This document shows positions 2,535 through 44,128 of a stretch of 64,000 bases of DNA, in pieces; positions within the stretch are counted from its first letter, which is position 1; each line of letters starts with the position of its first letter. Below the pieces are notes generated by a model that saw only the letters and a program-made list of their open reading frames with translations, was not told the DNA's origin and did not search any database. This stretch comes from Methanobacteriota archaeon (GTDB taxonomy: Archaea > Thermoplasmatota > Poseidoniia > Poseidoniales > Poseidoniaceae), in assembly GCA_018650165.1 (NCBI GenBank), contig JABIGM010000033.1, positions 3,036 through 67,035 on the forward strand. The letters are read 5' to 3'. A program made the translations under genes and the position numbers.

Positions 2535-5500
2535 TCACTGTTGGCCTTGCTGGGCAAGCCATTGGTGTCCGTAATGTTGCCATTGCTCCATCGACCAACC
2601 AGGCGGTAACCCGCTAGGCGGTAACGGAGGACCTGCTGGTACCTGAGGTGGAGTTGGGACCTTCGGAACATCTCCCTGTACAACACTGTCAGAGATATTA
2701 TTGATGACAGTCTGATTTATAGTAACATTTTGAGGATTTGGTGTGGTAATCGCAGGCGGGCGGCCAGTAGGAATAATTGCCGGAGGGGATCCGCTTGGAA
2801 GAGAAGATGGTGGCCGCCCCATTGGAACCACCACTGGCGCACCTGGAGTCGGTAAACTCGGGATTGATTCAGCTAAAGCCTCTGCAATCTCTTCTGCAGA
2901 AACGCCACCACTTGCTAGTGAATCCTGCCCAACAACCGAATCCATGACTGCCTTCATTCGTATTCCATCATCGGGAATTACATGTGCATCAGGGGCTACT
3001 AATTCCTCTCCAGAATAGTCCTTAGGTGCTGATTTCTTAATCCGGCGTGCCACTATCAATACACCCAATATAATCGCACCTACAATAGATGATGCTGCCC
3101 ATAATGGAAGTACGCCAAATAAGCCGCCTTGTGATTGACTATTTTGCACACTTAATTCTATTTCAACGGAAGTTGTTCCACAAGTGAATTGCAGAGTTTC
3201 AATTCCCGCTTTAGTATCACCATTTGGACTCACAGTAACCTCAATTTCAATGCTCTCACCTGCACTTAGATCAGTAACTGTATCTTCGGACAGGCCAACT
3301 TTCCATTCGTTGGCATCTAGTACAGCAGAAATGTTAGCGTCAAGTGGCGCATTACCAATATTATGGATTGTTAGTTTTTGGGAACTTTCTTCATCTCGAA
3401 CAACACCTAGCAAAGGTCGTGATTCTTCATCATATTCAATACTGCAGTGCGAACCAGATTCTACAGATACTGGATATGTTGCTGATACTTGAAGAGTATC
3501 AAAACCATTGTCGATTGTTGCATAAATCCCCAAATCAAAAATTGCATCGGAACTAGGTTGGTAGGCAGGAGGCTTTATCCCAACCTGTAGTTGAACTGAT
3601 TCTCTTGGTTCGAGGTATGTAGGTGGGTCTGCAAAACCTACCTCCCAACCATCAGGCGCAAGTGAATGTGACCACGACAAACTTATTGCAGAATTTCCTG
3701 TATTCTCTACGGTTAAGATATTGTAAGTAAAGTCATCAGTTACCATGGCGTTCAACTTGTAGTTATCGATTGGAGTAAACGCAATGCTAATCTCATCTTT
3801 TACAACTAAAGTAGTTTCATTTATGATAAAATTTGATTGGTCTTGGCTTGTTTTGATTACCAAATGATTTTCATCATTTCTAGCTGCTACTGGCGAAACA
3901 AGAATCTCGAACCGAACTTCAGAAGACTCCCCTGGAAGTACATTTACCTCAACTTCTCTGTTTTCGGTTTGCATACCATGGCTTACTTGGATTGTCCAAG
4001 TTGTTAATTCCGGGTTGATGCGTACTGTAAGATCAAGAACCGCATTACCTGTATTTTCGATAAGTAGTGTGATATTTAGGCGCTCAGCAGTATCGACATT
4101 GATGTCGCGAGCATATGCTGCAGGGCCGACTCCAAGGCCAGTATCGTCAACCAAGGTTGTATCAAACAATTCAAGCGTTTTTACCGTCAATATCACCGTT
4201 TCACTAATATTCAAAGACGGGTCTGTTTCACTAGTTACTGAGCATGTGATTGAATCTGTACTGCCAGAAGCAGGCATGCCATCTGCGACTGGAGGAACAT
4301 AGAGACGGACTTGCATTGGCAAGTACTCCAAAATTTCCAGTGGTTCAAATGAGTATGAAGACGAGTTAGATTGTCCCAACTGGACTTGCCAGCGGTTTTG
4401 GCTGTAACAATCTAGGTCGTAAACCGCAGGTGAATTGCCTGTGTTGCGAACCGAAATCGAGAAAGCCGTACTTCCACCAGGGATTGCTTCAAGGCCATCA
4501 GTTCCCGCTGGTGCAACCTGTACATCCTTAACTTCTTCAACTACCAAACGGAGACGAATTGTGTGTTTGACCGATGGGTTATTCGAATATTTTGCTGTCA
4601 AGTCCATGACATATGTACCTGCCATTGCATAACGTTTTGTGGCACCCGAAAGGTCTGCATCATCATCATTTAGTGTGATATTGAGATACATAGCATCCCC
4701 TCCATCACCCATTGGGGATAACGTAAATGGACCCTCCAAATCTGAATACCGTGACCAATCATCATCTGTAGGCAATAGCATATCGTCTCTTAGGGGATTT
4801 GGCATCTGCACTTGAGAAAGGTGCAACTTGACCGACTGGGTTTCAGTACCTTCGTGCTTCAGAAGTATCGGCCAAGTATAACCTTCTGCAGCCGCTGGAT
4901 TTAGAGTCTGATTGACCATAGTCGAATCTTCGAGACCACTGGCACCCAAGGGCACAAGTCTTACCCCTAGTGCAGAAACAGCTATTGTCATCTCTTCGAT
5001 ATTATTATTCACTCCGTTTGTTTCATCATTGACTTCAATAACATCGGAGTCTACATCAACACTCAGACGCATGTCATGGTCGCCTGTAGTTGTAAATGAG
5101 TGATAGAGAGTTAGTGAATCCATAGAGCCTGGATTCAGATTTGAGCGCACACCATCATAGAGGGTTGTTCCCGCAGTCAAATCTTCAAGTGTAACACGGA
5201 ACTGAGTGGTGCCTGCTGTTCCTTGATTAAGCCATGAAATTCTTAGAGTAATCAAGTCATTTACGAGGGGAGATGTCGATGAAGGAAATATCGAGCCATC
5301 AAATGCAAACAAATCGGCTTTTGCATCAAGTGTGGCATCACCTGTTAGAACGATGGAATAGGATTGATCAAGTCCACCGGTATGTGAAACCTTCACTTGC
5401 CAGTTACCAGAAGGTAGTACTGCATTTGGAGCCAGTCTAATCCGTTCAACATTGTTGATTGAATCATGGACGCCGTTTGGTACTGAGAAACCATTGACAA

Positions 5501-7385
5501 TTACATTACCTTTGTACATTGAGCCGTCGGGAGCAATTAGCAGGAGGTCGAGGTCATTGACTAGACGTGTCTCATTTTGGCCGGCGTTAGCACTGCCGGC
5601 TACATCCGACCATACTAGAGTAATATCGAGCCCGGAAGAGGGATCTAAATCAAATTGGTAAAGTGTTGAAAACCCTGCTGAAAGAGACCTTGAATTGTCA
5701 TGGTATGTCTCCAAATTATTTCCATTGTAAGTGGGAATTACTGTATTTGAAACAGAAATTTGACCCCATCCTTCTTGCGAATTTGGAATATCGGCAGCAC
5801 CCAAATCTATGGCCCCATTGATACTTGCTGCCTTTAGAAGTGAAGCGGAGGGAGAAGTAATTCCCACCTCTTCTCTGATGAATTCTCTGATTAGAGACAC
5901 TGAGCCGCCAGCAACTGCAGTCGCTTGACTCGAACCCGAAAGAGACATGTACAGATCTTCTCCGTTTGAGTGAGTGCCAGTTCCACAACTCAATCCAATT
6001 GTGAGAGATGCATCAACCGAATGACCCGAGCATATTGAAACTCCAGGGGCAACTAAATCTGGCTTTACCCTACCGTCTAGAGAAGGCCCTTGTGCTGAAA
6101 AATTGGCTACTGTGCCCGATGGACTTGTAGTTGTGGCTCCTATTGAAAGTACATTCTTCGCAGTTGATGGAGCCATGACCTTTGACGCATTTTGCCCTAC
6201 ATCATCACCCGCAGAAAATAGTGGCAAGAATTCAGGGTTATCATGAACAAAAACATCCAATGAACGTGAATCGGCAGTGTAGGCACCATAATTACCATTT
6301 AGACCCCAAGCATTTACGGCAATGCGTGATCCTTCTTGTTCTGCATGATTTAACATATCATATATTGAACCAATCCTACCAAAAACACCAGTTGGGTCAT
6401 GTTCCAATGCATATGCAACAATGTAAGCCTCAGGTGCAATTCCAGTAGCGATTGAATCACCACTTCCATCTCCTGCTATGGTCAAGGCGACATGTGTCCC
6501 ATGGCCACCGTTAGAATCAGCAGGGCTTGGGTCCAATCCGAATTGTGTGTAAACTCCAGCAATACGGCCACTGAGGTCAGGGTGTGTTTGGTCTATTCCA
6601 GTATCTGTGAAAGAAATTTTTTCCCCAGAACCATCAAGTCCAAGCGATGAATTAGAAACTTCAGGTAGCCCCACTATCGCTCCAGCCATTGCATTTGTCA
6701 ATTGTAATTCAGCGGTTGGTTCGGACCAGATAATACGGCCGTCAAGAGCCAGTTTTTCAAGATTAGGATGTCCTTTTATTTCGCACAAATGCAATCCACA
6801 CCAAGCCTCATCAGCCCCCATCATTACAAGGTCATGCGCAAGCCCCTCAAGGGCTTCAGGCATCAGGTCAGCCGCAGGTATTGCCGCAATGTAAACCGTG
6901 TTTGAATCTACTAGTGGTGAGACTCTCCAACCAGGCATCATTGAACCAGCCCAGCGAACAGAATCATCACCCTGTATTTTGGGCAAGTCGTTTGGGTGTG
7001 CAAGTCTTACGAGCCATGCTGCAGGTCCAAGGTTATCCAGTACGAATACATTGTATTCATCTACAATATCGTACAATGCACTACCCGTGTGGTGGTTCAA
7101 TTGAATTATGGCCATACCAGAATTCCGGTAGTCTTGATTATCATCGAGACGTGATTTAGGCAGTTCATCGACCAGTGGATCAAAGGAGCCAATTGCCAAG
7201 TGGATTTGGTTATCGGTTACCTTAAGAGGTGATTGAATTGACTCACTGGGTTCCATAGAATGCCAATTACCAGCTGCAATATCAAGTAAATTATTCTCTA
7301 CTGGCTGCTGGTTATCCACGGCACCGGCAATTGGTGCAAGAAGCATCACTGCAAGGATGAATAATGTTCTCCGTCCTGCAAGCAT
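2535..7385 (-). CDS. Giant membrane-anchored subtilisin-like (S8) serine protease with multiple CARDB/Ig-like domains, a C-terminal TM and a cytoplasmic tail (1616 aa)
   Basis: Signal peptide MLAGRRTLFILAVMLLAPIAGA. Catalytic motifs: FTDTGIDQTHPDL (Asp), GHGTHVALTIAG (His), VNAWG (Asn), LSGSSQATAVAGG (Ser). Repeated V.N.GN-type Ig-like modules (VRNTGNSPAVYDL, IENTGNAVLDLTV, VENTGNSAISLSW, IHNIGNAPLDANI). TM LPLWAASSIVGAIILGVLIVARRIKK followed by a Pro-rich tail. Confidence 0.85.
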   Translation of the reverse strand: MLAGRRTLFILAVMLLAPIAGAVDNQQPVENNLLDIAAGNWHSMEPSESIQSPLKVTDNQIHLAIGSFDPLVDELPKSRLDDNQDYRNSGMAIIQLNHHTGSALYDIVDEYNVFVLDNLGPAAWLVRLAHPNDLPKIQGDDSVRWAGSMMPGWRVSPLVDSNTVYIAAIPAADLMPEALEGLAHDLVMMGADEAWCGLHLCEIKGHPNLEKLALDGRIIWSEPTAELQLTNAMAGAIVGLPEVSNSSLGLDGSGEKISFTDTGIDQTHPDLSGRIAGVYTQFGLDPSPADSNGGHGTHVALTIAGDGSGDSIATGIAPEAYIVAYALEHDPTGVFGRIGSIYDMLNHAEQEGSRIAVNAWGLNGNYGAYTADSRSLDVFVHDNPEFLPLFSAGDDVGQNASKVMAPSTAKNVLSIGATTTSPSGTVANFSAQGPSLDGRVKPDLVAPGVSICSGHSVDASLTIGLSCGTGTHSNGEDLYMSLSGSSQATAVAGGSVSLIREFIREEVGITSPSASLLKAASINGAIDLGAADIPNSQEGWGQISVSNTVIPTYNGNNLETYHDNSRSLSAGFSTLYQFDLDPSSGLDITLVWSDVAGSANAGQNETRLVNDLDLLLIAPDGSMYKGNVIVNGFSVPNGVHDSINNVERIRLAPNAVLPSGNWQVKVSHTGGLDQSYSIVLTGDATLDAKADLFAFDGSIFPSSTSPLVNDLITLRISWLNQGTAGTTQFRVTLEDLTAGTTLYDGVRSNLNPGSMDSLTLYHSFTTTGDHDMRLSVDVDSDVIEVNDETNGVNNNIEEMTIAVSALGVRLVPLGASGLEDSTMVNQTLNPAAAEGYTWPILLKHEGTETQSVKLHLSQVQMPNPLRDDMLLPTDDDWSRYSDLEGPFTLSPMGDGGDAMYLNITLNDDDADLSGATKRYAMAGTYVMDLTAKYSNNPSVKHTIRLRLVVEEVKDVQVAPAGTDGLEAIPGGSTAFSISVRNTGNSPAVYDLDCYSQNRWQVQLGQSNSSSYSFEPLEILEYLPMQVRLYVPPVADGMPASGSTDSITCSVTSETDPSLNISETVILTVKTLELFDTTLVDDTGLGVGPAAYARDINVDTAERLNITLLIENTGNAVLDLTVRINPELTTWTIQVSHGMQTENREVEVNVLPGESSEVRFEILVSPVAARNDENHLVIKTSQDQSNFIINETTLVVKDEISIAFTPIDNYKLNAMVTDDFTYNILTVENTGNSAISLSWSHSLAPDGWEVGFADPPTYLEPRESVQLQVGIKPPAYQPSSDAIFDLGIYATIDNGFDTLQVSATYPVSVESGSHCSIEYDEESRPLLGVVRDEESSQKLTIHNIGNAPLDANISAVLDANEWKVGLSEDTVTDLSAGESIEIEVTVSPNGDTKAGIETLQFTCGTTSVEIELSVQNSQSQGGLFGVLPLWAASSIVGAIILGVLIVARRIKKSAPKDYSGEELVAPDAHVIPDDGIRMKAVMDSVVGQDSLASGGVSAEEIAEALAESIPSLPTPGAPVVVPMGRPPSSLPSGSPPAIIPTGRPPAITTPNPQNVTINQTVINNISDSVVQGDVPKVPTPPQVPAGPPLPPSGLPPGWSMEQWQHYGHQWLAQQGQQ

Positions 7386-7443
7386 GTTACTGCCGACACT
7401 GCATTCGTACTTGAAGACAAGCCTCTTATGAGCCCTATAGGGC

Positions 7444-8478
7444 TCACTCGAATAGTGATGAAATTGCAGCGTCTGTCTTGGCAACTGATGCCTTCCAATC
7501 CACCTCAATTCCCATCAGTGCACGTATTGCATCAACATTCTCGGGAATCACATCAGACTCTTGGTGAATTGCTTGGAAGTAGTATAGGGTATTGTCGATT
7601 AATTTTACTCCATCTTCCCATACAAATATCTCATGTAAGTCCCCCCATGTTCGACCCATGTCACGAGCGAATTCCATGACTTCAGCAGTGGTTGTAATTC
7701 CGGTATCTGCGCCATGCATAATCACCACACGCGGTGATTGCCTCCACATCTTTAGAACGCTCTCTGTGGTTAACCCGTGACCTTCAGGAAGTGTTGCAAC
7801 AATCGAATGCACATGCATAATCGTTGTGGGGACAGCAACAGCCAGGGAATTAATTTTAATTTCTGGCTTGACAGTCATTACATCTGGTCCATGGTGACTA
7901 GGAACTTTCAACACTGGCTTTATCGCATTGATTGGGCCTTTCTTTGAGTCGCCAGGATCTGCTGCTCTACGAATCATGGTACATTCGACAGAAAGTTCCC
8001 CGCAGTGTTCATACAATGGAACTAGTGTTCGAGATAAACCGGTAGTATTGCATGATACAACACGGGTCCCTTCGCCATTTAGATTGGCAGAATGATTTGC
8101 GCATGAAGTGTAGGACATTCCCGTCATAGCATGTTTTTCGCCACCCTGGAATATCCATTTTATTCCTGCTGCTTGGTATATTGCTTTGTTATCTGCACCC
8201 ATTTTTCCTGGCGAACAGTCGACAACTATGTCGGCGGCTGCCAAGAGGTCTGATAATCCGCCATGGCACTCATACCCTGCACTACCGAAAGCAGCGATTT
8301 TTTCAGCATCGTCAAAAGTACAGTACAAGGGATATCCTTTGCGCACAGCAAGGTCACAGCCAAATGCTGGCCGTGTCTTTGTAACTCCAATAATTTCCAT
8401 ATCATCTTGGCAGGCAACTGCGTCAGCAACTCGCTTGCCTATTGTTCCGTACCCGTTGATTGCAACCTTGATGGTCAT
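7444..8478 (-). CDS. gap: Glyceraldehyde-3-phosphate dehydrogenase, archaeal type II
   Basis: MTIKVAINGYGTIGKRVADAV Rossmann N-terminus; VVSCNTTGLSRTL active-site Cys region; the length (344 aa) is typical of archaeal GAPDH. ATG at 8478-8476. Confidence 0.9.
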   Translation of the reverse strand: MTIKVAINGYGTIGKRVADAVACQDDMEIIGVTKTRPAFGCDLAVRKGYPLYCTFDDAEKIAAFGSAGYECHGGLSDLLAAADIVVDCSPGKMGADNKAIYQAAGIKWIFQGGEKHAMTGMSYTSCANHSANLNGEGTRVVSCNTTGLSRTLVPLYEHCGELSVECTMIRRAADPGDSKKGPINAIKPVLKVPSHHGPDVMTVKPEIKINSLAVAVPTTIMHVHSIVATLPEGHGLTTESVLKMWRQSPRVVIMHGADTGITTTAEVMEFARDMGRTWGDLHEIFVWEDGVKLIDNTLYYFQAIHQESDVIPENVDAIRALMGIEVDWKASVAKTDAAISSLFE

Positions 8479-30885: not shown

Positions 30886-30892
30886 CCACCTA
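30886..30892 (-). promoter_or_regulatory. Shine-Dalgarno TAGGTGG overlapping the giant gene stop codon (translational coupling to the 140-aa gene)
   Basis: The minus strand reads aaaaagTAGGTGGtagtgtgATG. GGTG(A/G) is complementary to the conserved archaeal 16S 3' end. Confidence 0.55.
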
Positions 30893-33800
30893 CTTTTTGG
30901 GGACCAGCGACTCAATGTATTGGTGCCCATAGTGTGACCATTGGTCCATTGTCCAGCCTGTAGGTAATCCCGACGGAGGAATTGGCGGGCCAGGTGCTAA
31001 TGGAACTGCACCCTCAACATTCGGAGTTTCGGCTTGGCCGATAGATGGCACTAACTTTCCATCCATGTTTTCCTCAACTTCCGCAGTATGGTCCGATTCA
31101 TCTACTTCCTCACCACGTCTAATCTTTCTAATTTGGACCATTGTCCAAACTGCATAAGACATCGCACCGAGTGCAATTAGATACATTACAACAGACAATT
31201 GTGAGTCGGCAACTTGGTTTGCAAGTGCCGTACCATCTCTGTCTACTTCTCCCTTAATCAAGAGTGGAGTAATAGATATCCTTTCCTTTTCCACACCGGA
31301 ATCAAGGAGGAGGAGGCGGTGATCTAGAGTGTCTCCGACCTCGCCATCTGCAATAGCCAATAGCTTCACTTGGATTGTTTTTCCAGATGATACCGAAATA
31401 TCTACTGAAGATAATGTCTCCCAGTTTTCACCACTGGTCAGGCGTTGCAGAACAAATGTCACATTTCCTGAAGCCCCTGAATTCCTCGCCTCAACAGTGA
31501 GGGAAACCGACTCGTCAACAATCGGTGTAGGATTTGACCAAGACCACAACGTATCTGCTGCTCTGAGGCTTACATCCGGTCCTGTCAGAGCAAGAGGCCA
31601 TGATGCAAGTGGTGCTTCGAGTGTGTTACCGTCGCTGTCGTAAGGATTTCCAGAAGCATCTGAGCCAGTAACCCAGACATCAATTGTATATGATGGAAGA
31701 AGCATTGTCGCTCCACCATCGGTTAAATCGATGTAACCAGTCCAAAAGAATTGGTCCTCAAATGGAGTGGTATCAGGTAGTGGTGATGAACCTCTACTTA
31801 TCTCGGCTTCCCCAGCACGTACAAGATAGTGCATTACTGCTGGGTTTTCAATAGTAAATCCTTGGTCATCACGGGTTTCGAGCATTACTTGTAGATTTCC
31901 TGCAAGTGAAATAGGTATATCTTCACCTGGAGCAATTCCTGCTAAGTATACTGCATGGATAGTTGGTCGTTCACTGTCAACCGCTAGTCGCAAACGTGGT
32001 TTGAATTCGGATTCATCCTCTGCCAGACCAGGTAGATCTACTAGTTTCGCTCGCAAATCTAAATGGCCACTACGGACATCAGGAACTAGCATGTCAATAC
32101 TGAAATATCCACCATCTCGACTGGTAGTTGTCCATTCGTTTTCGTAGTCACCTAGAACGATTGTGAAAGTACCTGATGGAGCGGGTGTCTCATCTTCAGC
32201 GAAAAGTACACGGCCACTGAATCGCAGTGCTTGGCCAGCTCCGATTAGGGTCTCATCAAATTCAGGGTTGTAGTGGTTGGTTCCATCTCGTAATTCAATT
32301 GCCAAAATGTGTCCTGGCTGTGTATCGAACCGCAAATCATTGTCTAGGCTCCATAAGTCATTCCCTAATCCTGCTTTGTGAATATTACAAGGAACATTAT
32401 CCTCTAATCCACATGGCTTATCTTCAACCCAAACCTTTGGGATGAAATGCGATTCACCGTTTGTATCCCAGATTTCAGGGAAATTCCAAGTCAACTGGAA
32501 TTTTATCGATACAATCATTCGAGATTCGTTTTCCGGATCGAGGATAACAGAGGAGTACAGATTAGAAACTGCTAATCCAGAACCGCCACTTTCTAAAAAT
32601 AATTCTGGTAAGCCATCATTGGTCTTTGACAGGTAGGCAAAAATTGAGGTTTCATCATCATCAAAATCACCTGCGAGTGCTAATTGGACATAGTCAACAT
32701 CCCACCAGCCATTGATGTCTGAAACCATGAACGTAGCGGTATAAGACACACCAGGATGGAGAGGCTCTAGGTCATCGTGGCCCATGATTGTTGAATTATC
32801 AACATCCATTACTGGTTCAAATTCTTCACGTATCACATACCAGGATAGTGAATTATCCCATTCGGGAATTACTTCTCCCGGTCTGTCGCCACAATATTGT
32901 TCGCTAGACATGTCACAGACTGGTGCACCACCCATTGCAATCACATTTCCTTGCCCATCTTGGCCGGTAATATAGAATGCAACTTTGTCACCATGCAATA
33001 GCATTGAATCGTCTATCAGTCCATTGAAAATATTGAGACCACCCGCCCTTATTTCTGGTGTAGTCAGTGTTTTTGAACGGTATTCAATTGGTTCGGGAAG
33101 ACCATTAAAATTGGAATCGTCACACTTCTCATGCTCTCCTGCTTCACAACCCACCCAATAGTGTAGGTCTGCGGTTTGAGGAGGGTCTACCGAATCTTGT
33201 ATGATAACCTCAATTGCTTGCCCGCCAGGAGATGGTGGTCCCTTGTGCATTTCTGCAGATTTGGTTGGGCTAGCAAACAAAACAAGCGGAGCATTTCCAT
33301 CAAAAATCAATTTAATTGTATTATATCCGGGATTTACATAGGTTGAACCGGTTGCCAAATTTATAGCTTCAACCCTCAGAACCATTCCGCCAGGAGCAGA
33401 TTCAATAGGTGAAGTGAAGGTAATATTATATTGGCCAAATGCGGGATTTCCTTCTGAGTGAAGAACACTAGGTTCTCCAATTGGGACTCCATCGAAAGTT
33501 ACATTTTGGCCTAGTACTCGTAAATCAAATTCACCTGCTAAAGGTGAAAATGCAGAATTCTCAAAGTTTATTGCTCCAGCAATTGAAAGATTAAATCCGC
33601 CTCTAACCCAGTCACCTGGGTACAATTCTCTGCCGGTCTCTTCCCAAACGCGCATTCCATCTAACTGAATGTCATTCTCGATGTTAAGTGACAAAGTATC
33701 AGTTGTCCATGCAGTGATTTGAGGACCTAGATCATCATTCATCGAAACGATTGCTTCCATCCGCCTTTCATCATCCCATGTCCAGTTTACACGCATTGGC

Positions 33801-36238
33801 ATCTTCACAGATACCGTGCCTTCACTATCCATTGTCGAGGTGCAATTTCCAACATCAAAACTCACTATTTCATTAACATCATCTACAACACTACATGAAT
33901 CTCCACGTAGCCATTTGAATGCAGGATTGCCTCCATGTGAATTGTTTAATCCGATTGTTGCTTCAGTCACTTTATCGACCAAATCACCATGACCAAGTCG
34001 AACTACTAGGTTTCGATAAACGCCGTCAGGAGTTACCAGTCCCCCCTCTAGACTTGCATCGAGCACACGTGTCTTCAATCGATATTCAATATTTAATTCA
34101 GTCAGTTTTACTCTTCCGGGAGTATTTGCTTTGACTGCAATTGTAATTTCCACGGTTCCAACGCCATTATCAGGAATGTGGCTGTTGAAAGCATCAACCA
34201 ATCCGGGAGCTTCTGAAACAACACTTCCAACAGGTGAATCATCAGATGCAACCACTGAACTTTCGTTGAGGAAAAGGATAGATTTCCAATCCCACACGTT
34301 GTCATCTCCTACATCCAGTTGGGGTGCGTCTGGATATCCTTCTTCATACCAGAGAATGAAAGAGTCCACTTTCGGCGTCAGAGAGTTATCACTTGTCGCT
34401 AACAATACCGAATAAAGTAATTCATTTCCAGCACCTTGAGTTGAAAATGAAACTTCTTGATTATTGATTGCATCTTCCCAAGTTGTGCCATTATCATTGG
34501 AAACCTTGACTTCTAATGACGATGATGTAGGCTCATCAGCCTGCCATACGGCCCGAACTTTACCGACATTTGTTCCGGTTGAAACACGCTGACTAGTCCA
34601 ATCACCTGTTGTGTCATATGAGGTAGCATATTCCAGAGAGAGCCACCAAGAAACAGCAGAAGAACCAATCAGTTGCATTTTCCAAATTAATTCATTTCCT
34701 GGATGTGCGAAGTGGATAGTTTGGTTTTTCTCAACAGCTTCCCAGTGGGTACCATTATCGGCACTAACCCAGTAATCAACTCGATCTCCCTGGCTTGGTG
34801 CTGACCAGTGATTTTGTACATTTACTGCAATAACATCATCCGTAGTGACAATTGTATCTCCAACCCATGTAGTTGTACCAGGAGCAGGGGTTGTTGAATA
34901 GGAAAGCCCCATACCTAGTTCACGATAGTATAGAGTTTTAGAGCCCCATGTCGAATAGCCAGTATCAACTGTAATCAACCTCTGTCCGTCATAGTGCAGT
35001 CCAAATCCTTTGGCTGTGATGTCGATTGACCCTGCTTGTGGCACTAGTGATGATGACGTTCCAGATAGAGCCCATGCACTAATTTGGTCGGTGTCTGTGT
35101 AGTACAATCCCTTCATACAACGCATGTAGAAATAGTTAGAGTGTACAGTCAAGCCATGAACATTGCTTGTGGATTTGCCACATTCAGTGGATGAAGATGC
35201 CCCAGCTGAGAATGAATACATTTCTTCGCCCTTAGTAAATTGTCCATTATCTCCAAAGTCGTATGATACAATACGCCTTTGCTGTCCATGAACTATCCAG
35301 ATTTTGTCAGTTTCTCGATCATATGAGATTCCATTATATTCTCCATATGGCTGTCCAATGTCATAGGAATCTATACAATTCCATGTCCAATCATTTGAGA
35401 CATCAATTGCAAGAACTCTGAGGTGCTGTGTTGGAGTTGATGATGAATAAGAATATTTGTAGGTCGAAAATATACCATATAGGATTTCTTCATCAGTTAT
35501 TGTCCAGTCCTTGAAACCATAGGCCTTGTAGTAAGTTGAACTTGGGTCTTGAGGGAGAGCACACGCTGCTTCACGTTGTAAATCAACAACAATATCTCTG
35601 CTAACATTATTCGGGTGCATACGGTTGACTACTTTGTCAAATGAGGTCCCAGTAAAGGTTGACATGAAGAGCCAATCATGGTTACGAATGATTGCACCTT
35701 GGCCCTGTGCCATAAAGTTTTGACTTGTCATCTTTATTTGATTGCTGAATCGATTTTCAGTTGAGTTTGAAGTATGCGGTTGTCTAACTGCAAAACTACC
35801 ATTGTCGAGCCAAGATGATGTTCCGGAATTGATATCCTCATCGACCGCATGCGGTGCAAATATTACGTCTCCAGAATCAAATCCAAGAGTCAAATCACCA
35901 CTTCGTGAATCAGCCCGATTTGCTTCTCCATCCATCCATTCTTCATACGTGTCAGTAGAAACCTGCGACCAACCTGTCGATGACGCCCCCGAAAGTGTAA
36001 CTTGTACATCAAGAACCTCAGCCCCCTTCGGAATTGCAACTTTCGTGGTCTTATCCGAACCACCTTGATAGAGAGCAATATTCTCTATACTGCCATCTGA
36101 AAAGGTATAGATGTGCCTCGATGAACCTGCTGCTTCAGCCTCGCCCACAAAGGTTTCTGAAAGCGGGCTCAACGGTGTTAGTACTAGTAGCAAAAGCATC
36201 ATTATCAGGGCTGCACGGGAAGTAAAACTCTGCGACAT
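30890..36238 (-). CDS. Giant type-I surface protein (1782 aa) with propeller-like N-terminal region, Asp-box (BNR) modules, Ig-like domains, a TM and a conserved cytoplasmic tail
   Basis: Signal MSQSFTSRAALIMMLLLLVLTPLSPLS. Asp-boxes SADNGTHW and SNDNGTTW. TM LSVVMYLIALGAMSYAVWTMVQIRKIRR. The tail ends PPIPPSGLPTGWTMDQWSHYGHQYIESLVPKK. SD TAGGTGT lies 5 nt upstream of ATG 36238. Confidence 0.85.
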   Translation of the reverse strand: MSQSFTSRAALIMMLLLLVLTPLSPLSETFVGEAEAAGSSRHIYTFSDGSIENIALYQGGSDKTTKVAIPKGAEVLDVQVTLSGASSTGWSQVSTDTYEEWMDGEANRADSRSGDLTLGFDSGDVIFAPHAVDEDINSGTSSWLDNGSFAVRQPHTSNSTENRFSNQIKMTSQNFMAQGQGAIIRNHDWLFMSTFTGTSFDKVVNRMHPNNVSRDIVVDLQREAACALPQDPSSTYYKAYGFKDWTITDEEILYGIFSTYKYSYSSSTPTQHLRVLAIDVSNDWTWNCIDSYDIGQPYGEYNGISYDRETDKIWIVHGQQRRIVSYDFGDNGQFTKGEEMYSFSAGASSSTECGKSTSNVHGLTVHSNYFYMRCMKGLYYTDTDQISAWALSGTSSSLVPQAGSIDITAKGFGLHYDGQRLITVDTGYSTWGSKTLYYRELGMGLSYSTTPAPGTTTWVGDTIVTTDDVIAVNVQNHWSAPSQGDRVDYWVSADNGTHWEAVEKNQTIHFAHPGNELIWKMQLIGSSAVSWWLSLEYATSYDTTGDWTSQRVSTGTNVGKVRAVWQADEPTSSSLEVKVSNDNGTTWEDAINNQEVSFSTQGAGNELLYSVLLATSDNSLTPKVDSFILWYEEGYPDAPQLDVGDDNVWDWKSILFLNESSVVASDDSPVGSVVSEAPGLVDAFNSHIPDNGVGTVEITIAVKANTPGRVKLTELNIEYRLKTRVLDASLEGGLVTPDGVYRNLVVRLGHGDLVDKVTEATIGLNNSHGGNPAFKWLRGDSCSVVDDVNEIVSFDVGNCTSTMDSEGTVSVKMPMRVNWTWDDERRMEAIVSMNDDLGPQITAWTTDTLSLNIENDIQLDGMRVWEETGRELYPGDWVRGGFNLSIAGAINFENSAFSPLAGEFDLRVLGQNVTFDGVPIGEPSVLHSEGNPAFGQYNITFTSPIESAPGGMVLRVEAINLATGSTYVNPGYNTIKLIFDGNAPLVLFASPTKSAEMHKGPPSPGGQAIEVIIQDSVDPPQTADLHYWVGCEAGEHEKCDDSNFNGLPEPIEYRSKTLTTPEIRAGGLNIFNGLIDDSMLLHGDKVAFYITGQDGQGNVIAMGGAPVCDMSSEQYCGDRPGEVIPEWDNSLSWYVIREEFEPVMDVDNSTIMGHDDLEPLHPGVSYTATFMVSDINGWWDVDYVQLALAGDFDDDETSIFAYLSKTNDGLPELFLESGGSGLAVSNLYSSVILDPENESRMIVSIKFQLTWNFPEIWDTNGESHFIPKVWVEDKPCGLEDNVPCNIHKAGLGNDLWSLDNDLRFDTQPGHILAIELRDGTNHYNPEFDETLIGAGQALRFSGRVLFAEDETPAPSGTFTIVLGDYENEWTTTSRDGGYFSIDMLVPDVRSGHLDLRAKLVDLPGLAEDESEFKPRLRLAVDSERPTIHAVYLAGIAPGEDIPISLAGNLQVMLETRDDQGFTIENPAVMHYLVRAGEAEISRGSSPLPDTTPFEDQFFWTGYIDLTDGGATMLLPSYTIDVWVTGSDASGNPYDSDGNTLEAPLASWPLALTGPDVSLRAADTLWSWSNPTPIVDESVSLTVEARNSGASGNVTFVLQRLTSGENWETLSSVDISVSSGKTIQVKLLAIADGEVGDTLDHRLLLLDSGVEKERISITPLLIKGEVDRDGTALANQVADSQLSVVMYLIALGAMSYAVWTMVQIRKIRRGEEVDESDHTAEVEENMDGKLVPSIGQAETPNVEGAVPLAPGPPIPPSGLPTGWTMDQWSHYGHQYIESLVPKK

Positions 36239-36330: not shown

Positions 36331-39300
36331 TCAAGCGGTATTTCGACTGTCATATCGAATCGGTGAAGAATCGCCTCTAAGGCCATCAACCTCATCGTCC
36401 TTGACTTCAAACCAATCAACTAGCCAGTCTCCATCTGTATCCCAATTCAAAGGATCGCTGCCTTCCGCAATATGGTCATCATCCAAATCGAGGAGGTACC
36501 AACCCTTTTCGTGTTCGCCCAATTCAATTGCGGGAGCCCGATTTAAGTTTCCAACATAGTAAACATCCCAATCATCTGTAAGATCACCAGAACACAAGGT
36601 TACATCGTCCCCTACATCCAATACCAAGAAATCGGTGTCCATGTCATTGATGATTAGTGCATAACTCTCATCTGCGATATTCTTCTTATTCATTCCAAGA
36701 TAATTTGTTGTATCTTCAGTAACCTCACCCAAGCCGAGGGTGAAGGCTCTAAATTGCCACCACTCGGTGATAACTGAGCCATTCCAAGTTTCCCCAGAAA
36801 GTCTTACGGAGTCGGGAGAATCTAGGTTAGGGTCTGCTATTGCATAAAATTCCATGAAGTTAGTGTATGGAGTATAGACGCAAGTAGCACTGCAATCCCA
36901 GTTCCCATCTTGATCAGGATCATAGTTAGCATCCGCAGGATTTGCGGGATTAAATGTAGCCCAGGCCCATCCTAATGCCGGTCGAGAAAGTGTACCTAGG
37001 TTTTGAGAGAGGGGTCGGCATGAAGAGGTATTTGAGGTACAGCTCCCACCTGTTGAAGCATCGATCCATTGTACCTCAATATTCAATCGCGAGGAGTAGT
37101 TGTCATTACTTTCATTCCACCCTTTTGCATACTCATACCAATCAGGTAGCATATCGCCATCTGTATCATTATCCATTGGGTTTATTCCATATTTGAAAAC
37201 TTCACGACCATCTGAAAGATTCCAGTCTCGGTCGTGAGATATCACCATACCGCCTGCTACTTCTGTGTTGAAAGTTACTGAATCGCCATCAGAGTCATTT
37301 GTATCCGGTCTTGTACCATTCAAGTATTCCATATGGTTTGTAAATGGAAGGTCGCCAATTCCATTTTGGATGACCTCCCCTGAAGGAGTAAATTGTCGAT
37401 TCTCCCATGTACCTTGAACTGCAGGACTATCAAATGAAGTTCGATTATACCATCCATCACTATCAGGGTCATAGTCGATGTCGAATGGATTTACTGGATT
37501 GGTTGCCCAATGGTTCTGAGTTGTTGGATCTGGCATCCCATAAACCGCATAACAGAATTCCCAACCATCATCAATTCCATCTTGGTCCGAGTCAACGTTG
37601 GTTGGGTCTGTAATTCCAAATAAGGTCCGGTTGAAAGTATTGGGATCTTCAGAATTAATCATATCCATTCTTGCTGTGGAAGCGGAATCCTTACTTCGGA
37701 AATTATTGTAAATCGCCCTGCGTGCTTCAAGTTCAGTACTACCTTCTTCGACATATGCATCTACTGCATCATCACCAAATCCGATTAGTCCTGCACCAGT
37801 GGATAAACGAGTGTCATATTTACCATATACGCGAGATTCATATTCTCTTTTATTCGTAAATTGTTCTTCAAGTGAAATATTTCCATCTGCATTACAATCA
37901 ACTGAATCTAAATCACTGTCGAGCCATTGGTCAGAGTCGATTAGTGGATTCATCGACCAACGGTTATTTTCAAGGTCCCAAGATGTAAACCAATATTCGA
38001 ATCCATCAATCATTCCATCACTGTCAGTATCTGCTAGTGTTGGGTCGGTAATTCCCATTAGAGTTGAGATGAAAGTATTAGCAATTCCAGTAGATTGCCA
38101 CTCTTGGAATTCTTCAAGATGGCGTTTACCTCTCTGACCCTTATCGATAATTATTGAGTAGACTCTTTGTGCTTTTTGTGTTGGATCATTAATATCACCA
38201 TCAACATGCATCAATGGAGCATCAAGCGGATGGTTTTCACCATTTTCGGGATTTGTGACTGCTAAGGAGAATTCTTGTGCATCTGTCAGTGCATCATTAT
38301 CTGCATCGAATGAACCATCACCGGGGACTAGTGGATTGAGAGTCCAAGTTTGTGCAGTATCATTCCATGCTGTGAAAAGTAATTCCAAACCATCAAGGAA
38401 GCCATCGGAGTCTGTGTCGGGATTAGTTGGGTCAGTAGTCCAGCCCGATACATTGATCAAATCTTGTCCGACAAATGAACCGAACGACTCAGGATTTGTG
38501 ATTCCTGGCCATTGCTGTAGAGTATATCCTGTGCCAATGGTGGTCACAAACCATTGCGGGCTTGTTCGGTTGGCATTTGTCTCTGATAGCGCAGGGTCGA
38601 TTGTATTGTATTCTTCCCAGTTACTCATTCCATCATCATCAGAATCATCCCACCTATCGGTTGCATCCAATGGATCAAGTGACCACTGTGAATCCAATAG
38701 TTGCCAACGTGCATACCAGATTTCCCACCCATCTGGCATACCATCAGAATCGGTGTCGGAATCTGTGGGATCTCCAGTTAAATCACCATCACCAAAGGTT
38801 GACTCTGGAGTCGCCCAATCAGATACATTTCGAAACAAGTCGGTTGAGAAATTATTTGGAATTACTTCTCCATCTAAACTCATGTTGCCATCAAATAAGT
38901 TGTCCTTAATATTGTACTCGAGCCAATTAACAAATGCTTCATTTTCATCGATTACGCCATTGTGATTGATATCATATCCATCTCCATCTGGATTCTCAAA
39001 TGCATCACTACCATTCAATGGGTTGATTCCAATTCGGCTAACATCCCATGTGCAAGCACCTCTCGCTTCCCAGCCATCGGGCAAATCATCACCATCAGAA
39101 TCTACATTATTAGGGTCAGAATCAGACCATGCCATTGCAGCGACTTCAGATTCATAGTGGCTTTCAAGTAAATCACCAGCAACACCTGCTGCCTTGATAA
39201 GTGTCCACTGATATTCACAAAGGTTGCTTAGACCATCGCCATCCGCATCCCAATTTGCATCAGCAGGGTCAAGTGGATCCATGGTCCAATTATTCGAACC

Positions 39301-42018: not shown

Positions 42019-42106
42019 CGGAATCACCGTCGAGCGCGGTAGCACCCAACTAGACATGAACCATTGAACCAGCCTTAATACAGTGATGGAGCATTGTTCA
42101 GACTAG

Positions 42107-42209: not shown

Positions 42210-43028
42210 ATGCCATTGTCATTCACACACCTTGGAACAGGAAGTCGCGGTAACGCGACACTTGTTGAAAGTGGTGAAGCGAAAATTCTGATCGACCAGG
42301 GGTTTAGTGGAAAGCAACTGGAAAAACGCTTGGCCCGAATGGAAATAAAACCAGACGAAATTGATGCGATTGTTTTGACACACCATCACGGCGACCACGG
42401 CGGTGGTGCTTCAATTGCTCAGAGGAGATGGAATATTCCAATTTACTGCAATGACAGAACGGCCACTGCCCTCAACTTGGACCTCAAAGGTGTACATTTA
42501 TTCGAAGGACTAGATGCATTGGAGTTTGCAGACGACCTAGCCCTACTCCCGGTTCCAGTCCCACACAGTGGCGCTGATAATGTGGCATTCATCGCAAGCC
42601 ATCGTGGTGAAAGAGGAGCCGTGATTACAGATCTTGGCTCTTGGACTGATGAATTGGTTAACCATGTAACGGGATGTCAGCACATTTCGATCGAAGCAAA
42701 TTATGACCATCAACGTCTGTGGAATGGTCCGTATCCTATGCGTTTGAAGGACAGAATCTCAGGAAGAGGTGGGCATCTTTCTAATGACCAAACTGGCCAA
42801 TTTCTTTCGCAGGTTGTAACTAGTGAAACACGGTCTCTGGTGCTAACACATCTTTCAGAAAAAAACAATGCGCCACACCTAGCGGAGTCTACTGTTTTGT
42901 ACCATGTGGATGATCTTTTCGAAGGTGATATCCGAATCTCGCTTCAAGATGGCCCGGAGTTCACGCACCACATTGGCCAATGTGAATCTGAACGGGTACC
43001 CCAAGAGGGAATCTCCCTTCGAAGATGA
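42210..43028 (+). CDS. MBL-fold metallo-hydrolase
   Basis: MPLSFTHLGTGSRGNATLV..., HxHxDH motif in VLTHHHGDHGGG, and a late His in LVLTHLS. The product is 272 aa. Confidence 0.85.
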   Translation: MPLSFTHLGTGSRGNATLVESGEAKILIDQGFSGKQLEKRLARMEIKPDEIDAIVLTHHHGDHGGGASIAQRRWNIPIYCNDRTATALNLDLKGVHLFEGLDALEFADDLALLPVPVPHSGADNVAFIASHRGERGAVITDLGSWTDELVNHVTGCQHISIEANYDHQRLWNGPYPMRLKDRISGRGGHLSNDQTGQFLSQVVTSETRSLVLTHLSEKNNAPHLAESTVLYHVDDLFEGDIRISLQDGPEFTHHIGQCESERVPQEGISLRR

Positions 43029-43087
43029 GCCCTGTAAGGGCTCTCCTTGGTCAAACCATAAGAGGGGTGATGATTCTCTTCTGTCCG

Positions 43088-44128
43088 ATGAGGTCCAGCC
43101 GTAAAGCCGATGAGGACCTCGCCGTCAGCGAGGTTATCGGCGTAGTCATGCTTCTAGCCATGGTTATAACCATGATGGGAGGGGTTTTTTTGATGCTGAC
43201 CCCCTACGTCAACGACTTTCAAGACAATACCGCATGGGCGAATGCAAATGGAATTGCTGAGCGCCTTGATGGACGCATCGATGTTGTTGCAGGCGCAAGT
43301 GCTGACACCGGCATTAGAACCACAGTACCTTCGGTTAGCAGTGCGATTATTCCAATTTCAAACATTGAAAGCTGGACTGTTGCAGCAGATTTAACAGATT
43401 CAGAATCGGTTACTGTGTCATATCTAAACCAAACTGCATTTAGTGTGTTTGCCCAAAATGAAAAGGCCACTAGTGCAACTATTTGGACTCCAAATGGCGA
43501 ACAGACTTTCACTTTTGAGCCTAGCAATGAACCAGTTTTAATTGACCATGAATTGAATGTACTTCACTTGTACATCGTTACAGTTCATGATGCCGATGAT
43601 CAACCACTACACCGCCAAGCAGGTATCTCGATTTCAGGATTGCTAATTAAAACAAAAGTACAGGGTGGCGAGCACACAATAGGTCTGATAAATGATGCAC
43701 GCTATGATAAATTTTCTAATGAACCATGGACAATCGCTTCATCCCCCGGTATCAAAATTGAGGAACTTTTCGATGGAACAATGCGTGCAAGTTTGTCATT
43801 GCGAGATGTGAGTGTAATAGGGTCGGTACCTGATGGAAGAAATGCAATTTTTGACATTAGTTCTGCTGGGCCAATCGAATTATTCAGTGGTGATGCATGG
43901 AACTTTAGATTCAATTTTGATTCTACCCTTGGCCCTACAATCGCACCACAAATGAATGAGGGGTGGCTCACTGATTACACACTACACCGTGCTGCAGATA
44001 CGCTCGACCAACACCGTGGAATAAGCCCCTGGCTAAGAGCGAGTGGCTCAGATGGGATGACTATCGACAAAGGTAATTCAGTGATTGATTTGGAAATTGA
44101 TTTGCAATTAGTGGAGGTTCGTGAATGA
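43088..44128 (+). CDS. Archaeal type IV pilin-like protein (class III signal peptide, DUF1628-like N-terminus) with a large globular domain
   Basis: MRSSRKADEDLA/VSEVIGVVMLLAMVITMMGGVF is a short charged leader followed by a hydrophobic helix, typical of prepilin-peptidase substrates. An alternative upstream ATG at 43025 forms an ATGA overlap with the MBL gene stop. Confidence 0.6.
   Translation: MRSSRKADEDLAVSEVIGVVMLLAMVITMMGGVFLMLTPYVNDFQDNTAWANANGIAERLDGRIDVVAGASADTGIRTTVPSVSSAIIPISNIESWTVAADLTDSESVTVSYLNQTAFSVFAQNEKATSATIWTPNGEQTFTFEPSNEPVLIDHELNVLHLYIVTVHDADDQPLHRQAGISISGLLIKTKVQGGEHTIGLINDARYDKFSNEPWTIASSPGIKIEELFDGTMRASLSLRDVSVIGSVPDGRNAIFDISSAGPIELFSGDAWNFRFNFDSTLGPTIAPQMNEGWLTDYTLHRAADTLDQHRGISPWLRASGSDGMTIDKGNSVIDLEIDLQLVEVRE

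What the first reader, a model, noticed from the sequence alone, without database searches (positions are those of the whole stretch)
2538..2612. Conserved extreme C-terminal cytoplasmic peptide shared by two unrelated giant surface proteins (copy 1, S8 protease giant)
The S8 giant ends ...PPLPPSGLPPGWSMEQWQHYGHQWLAQQGQQ*. The 1782-aa Asp-box giant (nt 30893..30970) ends ...PPIPPSGLPTGWTMDQWSHYGHQYIESLVPKK*. Over 25 aligned residues, 18 are identical and the rest are conservative, giving the consensus PP[LI]PPSGLPxGW[ST]M[ED]QWxHYGHQ[WY][LI]. The ectodomains have different architectures. In both proteins the peptide follows a TM helix, a basic stop-transfer (RRIKK / RKIRR) and a Pro-rich linker, so it should face the cytoplasm. 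It does not resemble the archaeal C-terminal sorting signals I know (PGF-CTERM and PEF-CTERM are themselves terminal TM segments). LPxGW[ST]M resembles the first strand of a WW domain (LPxGWEM), and the preceding PPLP-type stretch resembles a WW ligand. A docking or self-association module linking giant adhesins to a cytoplasmic partner is therefore plausible, but this is inference.
Basis: partly seen in the sequence, partly recalled or inferred. Interest (0 to 1): 0.78.

Follow-up and report, generated by a model that had tools for sequence, protein, structure and literature searches.

The report
Shared cytoplasmic tail of Poseidoniales surface proteins
Many unrelated cell-surface proteins of the abundant marine archaea Poseidoniales carry the same nearly invariant 26-residue peptide on their intracellular side, an undescribed module that probably serves as a common internal docking handle for the cell's surface proteins.

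Summary
Both window giants end in G-P-P-[LIV]-P-x-x-G-L-P-x-G-W-[TS]-M-[ED]-Q-W-x-[HYW]-Y-G-x-[QE]-[WY]-[LI]. This is their only significant similarity (E=2e-7). The same module, with invariant spacing, occurs in 214 ORFs across 196 fetched genome loci and in 601 cluster representatives out of 1.84 billion proteins. As far as sampled, all are in Poseidoniales (both families). It sits on at least 10 unrelated carrier types, including S8 proteases, PKD/CARDB, TSP3, beta-propeller and CxxCH proteins. It lies after a single TM helix with a basic flank and a 24-151 aa Pro/Ala-rich linker. It also occurs N-terminal to the TM helix in a type II protein, fused to SAP domains, and in a loop of a multipass protein. 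So it is specific to the cytoplasmic side, not to the C-terminus. Selection acts on the peptide, because all synonymous codons are used. Pfam, NCBIfam, PDB and the literature have no match. AlphaFold predicts a Pro-rich stretch followed by one helix, not a WW sheet. I infer a cytoplasmic docking mini-domain whose partner is unknown. Side finding: one carrier family adds an FtsZ-tail-like acidic end and is always followed by a divergent SepF gene.

The parts
2535..7385 (-). Carrier 1: S8 subtilase surface protein. Probable start is the ATG at 7385 (the listed ORF runs to a TTG at 7508). Stop codon 2535..2537. Signal peptide MLAGRRTLFILAVMLLAPIAGAV.
   Evidence: ORF list; translation; Pfam Peptidase_S8 E=3.6e-40, CARDB, NPCBM_assoc; start positions
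3048..3104 (-). Carrier 1: single C-terminal TM helix LWAASSIVGAIILGVLIVA, followed by RRIKK
   Evidence: positive-inside statistics across 95 carriers
2634..3047 (-). Carrier 1: basic stop-transfer plus a 138-aa Pro/Ala/Ser-rich, poorly conserved linker
   Evidence: linker composition and low conservation
2556..2633 (-). Carrier 1: conserved module GPPLPPSGLPPGWSMEQWQHYGHQWL
   Evidence: (HMM E=1.6e-16); AlphaFold pLDDT 83-87 with helix MEQWQHYGHQWLAQQG
2538..2555 (-). Carrier 1: variable post-module end AQQGQQ
   Evidence: short-end class
30890..36238 (-). Carrier 2: 1782-aa surface giant with no Pfam domain and two Asp-box-like motifs. Probable ATG at 36238. Stop codon 30890..30892. Signal peptide present.
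   Evidence: orthologue in L025 at 83% identity
31136..31198 (-). Carrier 2: single C-terminal TM helix LSVVMYLIALGAMSYAVWTMV, followed by QIRKIRR
30992..31135 (-). Carrier 2: basic stop-transfer plus a 48-aa acidic/Pro-rich linker
30914..30991 (-). Carrier 2: conserved module GPPIPPSGLPTGWTMDQWSHYGHQYI
   Evidence: (HMM E=3.8e-16)
30893..30913 (-). Carrier 2: variable post-module end ESLVPKK

Best explanation
The peptide is the core of a small, autonomous cytoplasmic module of about 26 residues that is restricted to Poseidoniales. It consists of a Pro-rich stretch (PP[LIV]PxxGLPxG) leading into one aromatic-rich helix (W[TS]MEQWx[HY]YGxQ[WY]L). It hangs on a flexible, poorly conserved 24-151 aa tether on the intracellular side of many unrelated membrane-anchored surface proteins. 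I think it most likely works as a common docking handle. One shared cytoplasmic partner, or a small set of partners, would recognise the same module on the S8 proteases, PKD/CARDB proteins, TSP3 and beta-propeller proteins and the rest, and so could position, cluster or retain much of the surface proteome from inside the cell. Shown: the conservation, the distribution, selection at the peptide level, and the absence of any known match. Inferred from sequence features: the cytoplasmic location. Predicted: the Pro-stretch-plus-helix shape. Inferred: that it binds a protein. Unknown: the partner.
For: Conservation: 96 instances in the first 80 loci have invariant spacing and near-invariant columns that the search patterns did not select. 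A looser scan left the inter-Trp positions free, yet they are T/S 65/70, M 57/70, E/D 65/70 and Q 67/70. Module identity between unrelated carrier families is 72%, against 18-20% for ectodomain, TM helix and linker. All synonymous codons are used at invariant residues across 206 nucleotide versions. Breadth: 223 tblastn-confirmed loci in species-representative genomes; 116 of 119 loci from the loose scan are true modules; 601 representatives at E<=1e-3. Carriers are diverse. Cytoplasmic side: positive-inside rule, SAP fusions, the type II protein L140 with SAP and module N-terminal to the TM helix, and a loop position in the multipass protein P0082. Structure: AlphaFold pLDDT 83-87 over the module with a single helix, and least-conserved positions +7, +11 and +15, a period of 4. 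Conserved polar residues (E, Q) and a net charge of -1.6 argue for specific recognition over lipid binding. Precedent within the same tails: one family appends a second short peptide that resembles a known docking ligand (the FtsZ C-terminal peptide) and is always next to SepF.
Against: No partner has been identified. No conserved cytoplasmic gene neighbours most carriers, and the window neighbours are housekeeping genes. The 141-aa ORF recurs only in the syntenic locus. The AlphaFold model rests on six sequences, and I could not inspect its coordinates, so packing of the Pro-rich stretch on the helix is not shown. No complex prediction was possible. Topology is inferred, not measured. A shared partner and tail-to-tail self-association cannot be told apart with these data.
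Confidence: 0.45

Rival explanations
1. Homotypic or heterotypic self-association: the modules bind each other and cluster different surface proteins into patches or a coat, with no separate partner.
For: The module is the only element common to all carriers. No dedicated partner gene is found beside them. An aromatic helix with an invariant Gly in the middle of its conserved face would allow close helix-helix packing. Tandem pairs of carriers are common.
Against: No oligomer prediction or experiment is available. The module also occurs with SAP domains in a protein with no TM segment in the sequence on record (P0045, 164 aa, may be a fragment) and in a type II protein (L140), where clustering of surface proteins is a less obvious role. 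The net negative charge does not favour self-association.
Confidence: 0.2
2. In-plane membrane anchor: the Trp/Tyr-rich helix lies at the cytoplasmic membrane interface and stabilises the single-pass anchor.
For: Trp and Tyr favour membrane interfaces, the helix has a hydrophobic face, and the tether would let it fold back to the membrane.
Against: The mean hydrophobic moment is only 0.28 with mean hydrophobicity about 0. The net charge is -1.6 and there is no basic flank. The polar residues E and Q are nearly invariant, which lipid binding would not require. Tethers of up to 151 aa are unnecessary for this role.
Confidence: 0.08
3. Nascent-chain element: a Pro-rich, Trp-containing peptide that pauses the ribosome near the end of translation so that the TM helix and the giant ectodomain finish insertion and export.
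For: Conservation acts on the peptide, not the DNA. The motif is Pro-rich. In the first 80 loci it lies at least 47 residues after the TM helix, so the helix would be out of the ribosome tunnel when the module is decoded.
Against: The module also lies N-terminal to the TM helix (L140), in a loop (P0082), in a 164-aa SAP protein with no TM segment in the sequence on record (P0045), and up to 93 residues or a whole SAP domain before the stop codon. Small carriers have linkers of only 24-43 aa. AlphaFold gives it a confident fold. PP[LIV]P is not among the strong stalling contexts (my own knowledge).
Confidence: 0.07
4. A truncated or divergent WW domain, with its own PPLP ligand upstream.
For: The only PDB sequence matches of the module profile are WW domains of Salvador homologue 1, over PLxxxGLPPGW. 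By eye, a loose colinearity continues (W..., G, aromatic, aliphatic).
Against: Those matches are not significant (E=0.68-6.9). Pfam WW gives no hit at E<=10. There is no second Trp 20-22 residues on and no trailing Pro. In most carriers only 3-8 residues follow the block. AlphaFold predicts a helix and no strand. The least-conserved positions have period 4, not 2. Foldseek finds no PDB match.
Confidence: 0.05
5. A sorting or processing signal recognised by a sortase-like or secretion system, analogous to PGF-CTERM/archaeosortase or a type 1 secretion C-terminal signal.
For: Like those signals, it is a lineage-specific signature near the C-terminus of many unrelated secreted proteins.
Against: The motif lies 24-151 residues beyond the TM helix on the cytoplasmic side, not just before it. 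It occurs N-terminally and internally. NCBIfam sorting-signal models give no hit. Carriers have ordinary N-terminal signal peptides, so export needs no C-terminal signal.
Confidence: 0.05
6. A chance match, a recent gene conversion, or a conserved DNA/RNA element that overlaps the gene ends.
For: None beyond the initial two-copy observation.
Against: E=2e-7 pairwise. Hundreds of independent instances. Synonymous sites are saturated. There is no overlap with the downstream adenylate kinase gene, whose ATG lies 16 nt after the S8 stop codon.
Confidence: 0.01

Closest known systems
C-terminal sorting signals of prokaryotic surface proteins (PGF-CTERM/archaeosortase A, PEP-CTERM/exosortase, LPXTG/sortase)
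   Same: A short, lineage-specific signature shared by many unrelated secreted surface proteins and located in the C-terminal region near a TM helix and a basic cluster.
   Different: In those systems the motif precedes the TM helix, faces outward and is cleaved. Here it lies 24-151 residues after the TM helix on the cytoplasmic side, can be N-terminal or internal, and matches none of the NCBIfam models.
Chemoreceptor C-terminal pentapeptide (NWETF) on a flexible arm that tethers CheR/CheB (my own knowledge)
   Same: A short aromatic docking peptide at the end of a disordered cytoplasmic tether on a membrane protein. This is the best functional analogy for the layout.
   Different: That system is bacterial, uses 5 residues and has a known partner. 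There is no sequence similarity. The module here is 26 residues, is predicted to fold, and sits on proteins with unrelated ectodomains.
WW domain (Pfam PF00397)
   Same: It begins with LPxGW, is rich in Trp, and is associated with Pro-rich sequence. The weakest-possible PDB hits are WW domains.
   Different: It lacks the second Trp and the trailing Pro, is too short, is predicted to be helical, and gives no Pfam hit.
PP-fold and Trp-cage miniproteins (avian pancreatic polypeptide, exendin-4 Trp-cage; my own knowledge)
   Same: A polyproline stretch joined by a turn to an aromatic amphipathic helix within about 30-36 residues. This is what the AlphaFold secondary structure and sequence suggest.
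   Different: There is no homology, and those are vertebrate hormones or designed peptides. Packing of the Pro stretch on the helix could not be verified here, and Foldseek gave no hits.
FtsZ C-terminal peptide binding to SepF (Pende et al. 2021, PMC8178401)
   Same: This applies only to the extended tail class. An acidic-hydrophobic C-terminal peptide (LLDDLDL, DDLDLDF, LLDGLDL) on a disordered spacer resembles LDDFI/DLDV and the GID-centred archaeal FtsZ tail, and a SepF gene lies directly downstream in 40 of 40 cases.
   Different: The peptide is on surface proteins, not on FtsZ. Binding is untested. The class is not present in the window. The association is confounded by synteny within one family.
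Cytoplasmic tails of eukaryotic adhesion receptors (integrin NPxY-talin, cadherin-catenin; my own knowledge)
   Same: The concept of a conserved intracellular tail motif that couples diverse ectodomains to an internal scaffold.
   Different: These are eukaryotic with unrelated sequences. No archaeal counterpart has been described, to my knowledge or in the searched literature.

Membership tests
WW domain | Significant match to the family profile | tested here: not met
   Pfam hmmscan of both tails at E<=10 gave no family. The PDB profile search gave only SAV1 WW domains at E=0.68-6.9, over 13-17 residues.
WW domain | Two conserved Trp 20-22 residues apart, with a conserved Pro 2-3 residues after the second Trp | tested here: not met
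   The module's Trp residues are at +1, +6 and +13. No conserved Trp or Pro follows. Most proteins end 3-8 residues after the block.
WW domain | Three-stranded antiparallel beta-sheet | tested here: not met
   AlphaFold2 predicts one helix and no strand. Conservation has period 4. Foldseek found no PDB match. This is a prediction only, from a shallow alignment.
PGF-CTERM / archaeosortase-type sorting signal | Signature motif immediately N-terminal to a C-terminal TM helix, followed by a short basic tail at the extreme C-terminus | tested here: not met
   The motif is 24-151 residues C-terminal to the TM helix and can be N-terminal or internal.
PGF-CTERM / archaeosortase-type sorting signal | Match to curated sorting-signal models | tested here: not met
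   NCBIfam scan of TM helix plus tail at E<=10 gave no sorting-signal family.
GYF domain | About 60-aa beta-beta-alpha-beta-beta domain with the signature W-x-Y-x6-11-GPF-x4-M-x2-W-x3-GYF | tested here: not met
   There is no Pfam hit. Only M-x2-W and YG resemble it, and the upstream sequence is a Pro-rich linker.
PP-fold / Trp-cage miniprotein (structural class, not homology) | Polyproline-II segment packed against an aromatic amphipathic helix | not testable with these tools
   The secondary structure and the pLDDT of 83 over the Pro-rich stretch are compatible with this. Coordinates and contacts could not be inspected, and Foldseek gave no match.
Membrane-targeting amphipathic helix | High hydrophobic moment with a basic or neutral polar face | tested here: not met
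   Mean hydrophobic moment 0.28, z=1.1 versus shuffles, net charge -1.6.
SepF (applies to the ORF downstream of extended-tail carriers, not to the module) | N-terminal amphipathic helix, flexible linker, and a C-terminal beta-alpha-beta-alpha-beta-beta core superposable on SepF structures | tested here: met
   AlphaFold core pLDDT 81-89 with this topology. The top 9 Foldseek PDB hits are all SepF (3zig_A TM 0.82, RMSD 2.2 A, probability 1.00). JGI names members SepF-like. The Pfam SepF model and a PDB sequence profile search both miss it.
FtsZ C-terminal peptide (applies to the acidic ends of extended tails) | Binds the SepF groove | not testable with these tools
   There is only sequence resemblance to LDDFI/DLDV/GID and 40/40 adjacency to SepF. 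No Poseidoniales FtsZ was found in the fetched DNA.

The most novel reading that the evidence does not exclude
The module is the common handle of an archaeal cortex that couples the surface proteome to internal machinery. Diverse exoproteins would be tethered through it to one cytoplasmic scaffold. Specialised tails would add a SepF-binding FtsZ-mimic peptide, linking envelope proteins to the division ring, or a SAP domain, linking them to nucleic acid. This would be the first inside-out organising system for surface proteins described in Archaea. A weaker variant of this reading is that the module is a helical relic or convergent copy of the WW/PPxP recognition pair.
Probability: 0.15. Interest if true: 0.9.

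Novelty: new variant of a known kind. Interest (0 to 1): 0.7.

Why it matters
Poseidoniales (Marine Group II) are among the most abundant planktonic archaea. They are uncultured, and nothing in the searched literature describes their envelope or these anchored surface proteins. Their large surface proteases and adhesin-like proteins are thought to drive degradation of particles and proteins. A single, almost invariant intracellular module on all these proteins implies one shared internal interaction governing their placement, retention or turnover. It gives a concrete 26-residue bait for finding that partner by pull-down or AlphaFold-Multimer screening. It gives a sequence tag that identifies the anchored surface proteome in metagenomes. 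With the SepF-adjacent FtsZ-like tails, it also offers a testable link between envelope proteins and the archaeal divisome. It would merit a new family entry in the domain databases.

Tried and rejected
1. The word-indexed protein search with the tails found only 4 fragments, so I switched to degenerate DNA scans and the exhaustive HMM search.
2. Pfam and NCBIfam on the tails gave nothing.
3. Foldseek of the 49-residue model against PDB gave no hits.
4. The 141-aa ORF downstream of the second giant, proposed as a partner, has no Pfam family and recurs only in the syntenic locus L025, so I rejected it as a general partner.
5. The neighbourhood analysis of 80 loci found only family-specific synteny: adenylate kinase and GAPDH beside the S8 carriers, SepF beside the PKD/CARDB carriers. 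No neighbour is common to all carrier families.
6. The third giant's W-rich tail is not a module relative. It is a separate conserved tail.
7. The viral contig scan found no module.
8. My SepF guess for the downstream ORF at first failed by Pfam and by a PDB sequence profile. It was then confirmed by structure prediction plus Foldseek.
9. A search for FtsZ in the 2 Mb of fetched DNA, to compare C-termini, found none.
10. Two early literature queries were too loose and returned irrelevant papers.
11. Matches in Streptomyces, Dormibacteraeota and Deinococcus were chance pattern hits.
12. I could not run complex or multimer predictions, inspect model coordinates, or count copies in a complete genome.
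Full report
OBSERVATION. On the minus strand, the S8 subtilase giant (ORF 2535..7508; probable ATG at 7385) ends ...GPPLPPSGLPPGWSMEQWQHYGHQWLAQQGQQ*. The 1782-aa giant (30890..36238) ends ...GPPIPPSGLPTGWTMDQWSHYGHQYIESLVPKK*. The motif occurs exactly twice in the six-frame translation. A module HMM hits only these two ORFs (E about 1e-16; the next hit is E=0.6). BLASTP of the whole proteins gives the tail as the only significant similarity (E=2e-7). A faint Ig-like match at E=0.018 comes next. The two DNA copies differ at many synonymous sites, including AGC versus TCG for Ser. In both proteins the order is signal peptide, ectodomain, one TM helix, RRIKK or RKIRR, Pro-rich linker (138 and 48 aa), then the module. 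The conserved block starts 7 residues upstream of the coordinates given.

HOW WIDESPREAD. A degenerate scan of one genome per GTDB species found 321 pattern matches, of which 223 were confirmed by tblastn. The 80 loci returned hold 94 instances. The three failures are chance matches in Streptomyces, Dormibacteraeota and Deinococcus. All true hits are on contigs labelled Poseidoniales, Poseidoniaceae, Thalassarchaeaceae or generic 'Euryarchaeota/Methanobacteriota/Thermoplasmatota archaeon' marine MAGs. A few are on bacterial-labelled MAG or SAG contigs that carry typical Poseidoniales carriers, which is probably binning contamination. An exhaustive HMM search of 1.84 billion cluster representatives gave 601 hits at E<=1e-3 and 94 at E<=1e-10. 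Most of these are C-terminal fragments from short metagenome contigs. No viral contig encodes the module. Several assemblies have three or more carriers even in these truncated samples, and the window has two in 64 kb.

ANATOMY AND CONSERVATION. The spacing is invariant in all instances. The consensus is G-P-P-[LVI]-P-x-x-G-L-P-x-G-W-[TS]-M-[ED]-Q-W-x-[HYW]-Y-G-x-[QE]-[WY]-[LI]. Columns the search patterns did not constrain are still nearly fixed. These are PP[LVI]P, YG and [WY]L in the first scan, and T/S, M, E/D and Q between the two Trp residues in the loose scan. Between unrelated carrier families the module is 72% identical, whereas the ectodomain, TM helix and linker are 18-20% identical. 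At invariant residues all four Pro, all four Gly and all six Leu codons are used across 206 nucleotide versions. So selection acts on the peptide, not on a DNA or RNA element.

CARRIERS. BLAST clustering and Pfam identify S8 proteases, a large PKD/CARDB family of about 1200 aa (often in tandem pairs), arylsulfotransferase/TSP3 proteins, TSP3 proteins, beta-propeller proteins, Ig-like proteins, proteins of about 360 aa with a CxxCH motif, the Asp-box giant of the window, and families with no Pfam domain. Of the complete ORFs, 73 of 78 have an N-terminal hydrophobic signal.

WHICH SIDE OF THE MEMBRANE. K+R average 3.17 in the 15 residues after the TM helix and 0.37 before it. The module is fused to SAP domains, an intracellular nucleic-acid-binding fold. 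SAP follows the module in P0069, P0089 and P0145 and precedes it in P0045 (Pfam E about 1e-10). In L140 the order is SAP, module, TM helix, then a 540-aa C-terminal domain. That is a type II layout with the module on the N-terminal side. In P0082 the module lies between TM segments of a multipass protein. The module is therefore tied to the cytoplasmic side and not to the C-terminus.

STRUCTURE. AlphaFold2, using six sequences, gives pLDDT 83-87 across the module. It predicts a non-regular Pro-rich stretch followed by a single helix, MEQWQHYGHQWLAQQG, and no strand. Independently, the least-conserved module positions are +7, +11 and +15. That period of 4 is what an exposed helix stripe would give. 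The helix has a modest hydrophobic moment (0.28), a net charge of -1.6 and no basic flank. Foldseek finds no PDB match. The layout recalls PP-fold or Trp-cage miniproteins (my own knowledge). I could not inspect coordinates, so that packing is unverified.

COMPARISON WITH KNOWN FAMILIES. Pfam (E<=10), NCBIfam (E<=10) and the literature (motif strings; Poseidoniales envelope) give nothing. A profile search of PDB sequences returns only non-significant hits (E=0.68-6.9) to WW domains of Salvador homologue 1, over PLxxxGLPPGW. PGF-CTERM-type signals differ in topology and position.

MECHANISM. The best-supported reading is a cytoplasmic docking mini-domain on a flexible tether, recognised by a shared intracellular partner (confidence 0.45). 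Self-association of tails is the main rival (0.2). The less likely rivals are an interfacial membrane helix, a translational pausing element, a WW relative and a processing signal. Each is weakened by specific results given in the rival section. That the module binds a protein is inference. No partner was found, and gene neighbourhoods are family-specific.

SIDE FINDING. After the module, one PKD/CARDB family carries a low-complexity spacer and an acidic-hydrophobic end: LLDDLDL in 14 cases, DDLDLDF in 10, LLDGLDL in 6, and others. All 40 such carriers are followed within 900 nt, often within 0-10 bp, by a conserved 165-210 aa ORF. None of the 171 short-tail carriers is. Pfam and a PDB sequence profile miss this ORF. 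However, JGI names some members SepF-like. AlphaFold gives an N-terminal helix, a disordered linker and a beta-alpha-beta-alpha-beta-beta core. The top nine Foldseek hits are SepF structures (3zig_A TM 0.82, RMSD 2.2 A). Pende et al. (PMC8178401) show that SepF binds the FtsZ C-terminal peptide (LDDFI or DLDV, GID-centred) through Asp-Arg/Lys pairs and hydrophobic contacts. The carrier ends resemble that ligand. This suggests, but does not show, that these surface proteins dock on SepF. The association is confounded by synteny within one family, and it is not present in the window.

VERDICT. This is a real, strongly selected, lineage-restricted and undescribed cytoplasmic module. Its function is inferred and its partner is unknown.

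Noticed in passing
L016:12774-13325, L002:9311-9874 and 30 further loci (not in the window): A divergent SepF lies 0-10 bp downstream of the PKD/CARDB module carriers. Pfam misses it, but AlphaFold plus Foldseek identify it (3zig_A TM 0.82). All 40 carriers whose tails end in an FtsZ-tail-like acidic peptide (LLDDLDL, DDLDLDF, LLDGLDL) have it downstream; none of 171 short-tail carriers do.
   Followed up: yes
window 49224..49292 (-), C-terminus of the 1445-aa beta-helix giant 49221..53558: A second, different conserved tail, QHPGW[IL]WDAx[ST]NQW[VI]xDPN[YF]xPPQQ*, is found in 9 orthologous Poseidoniales giants. Here the TM helix is followed by an acidic flank (FFFLEFEEFDD), not a basic one, so its topology is unclear.
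   Followed up: partly
P0069, P0089, P0145, P0045; L140:1042-3465: SAP (Rho_N-like) domains are fused to the module. They sit at the C-terminus of carrier tails, and at the N-terminus of a type II membrane protein whose layout resembles ToxR/CadC-type membrane-bound DNA binders.
   Followed up: partly
L082:6633-7709, L125, L156, L159, L164, L172, L124: A family of small module carriers (about 360-385 aa) has a signal peptide and a CxxCH motif (CAGSCHG or CGGACHG). This may be a membrane-anchored extracellular haem-binding protein. It has no Pfam family.
   Followed up: no
window 55057..63948 (-): A 2963-aa protein fuses an N-terminal STT3/AglB oligosaccharyltransferase to a very long ectodomain with CarboxypepD_reg repeats. 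It ends in a TM helix plus KGSSSRF and has no module.
   Followed up: no
window 36331..42057 (-): A 1908-aa TSP3-repeat giant lies directly upstream of carrier 2 and has no C-terminal TM helix or module. The pair is syntenic in L025.
   Followed up: partly
window 43025..46637 (+): A cluster of three archaeal type IV pilin-like genes (Pilin_N, DUF7289, DUF7266) lies beside a metallo-beta-lactamase-fold gene.
   Followed up: no
window 46644..49166 (-): An 841-aa STAND-type NTPase with an N-terminal HTH and C-terminal TPR repeats (MalT-like) sits between the pilin cluster and the beta-helix giant.
   Followed up: no
window 53754..54965 (-): A second, small S8 subtilase (404 aa) has an internal N-proximal hydrophobic segment and no module.
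   Followed up: no
L047, L060, L086, L133, L146, L163, L062: Contigs in MAGs or SAGs labelled Salinimicrobium, Salipiger bermudensis, Verrucomicrobiales, Yoonia and Deltaproteobacteria carry typical Poseidoniales module carriers. This probably reflects binning or sorting contamination in those public assemblies.
   Followed up: partly
P0082 (325 aa): The module lies between TM segments of a multipass membrane protein with no Pfam family. This may be a genuine loop context or a gene fusion or assembly artefact.
   Followed up: no
window carrier 1 ectodomain (e.g. LAPDGWEVGFADPP) and ectodomains in L095, L104, L105, L115: LPxGW-like strings also recur in the extracellular Ig-like repeats of the carriers and give weak secondary HMM domains. 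This is unrelated to the cytoplasmic module but is a trap for regex searches.
   Followed up: partly
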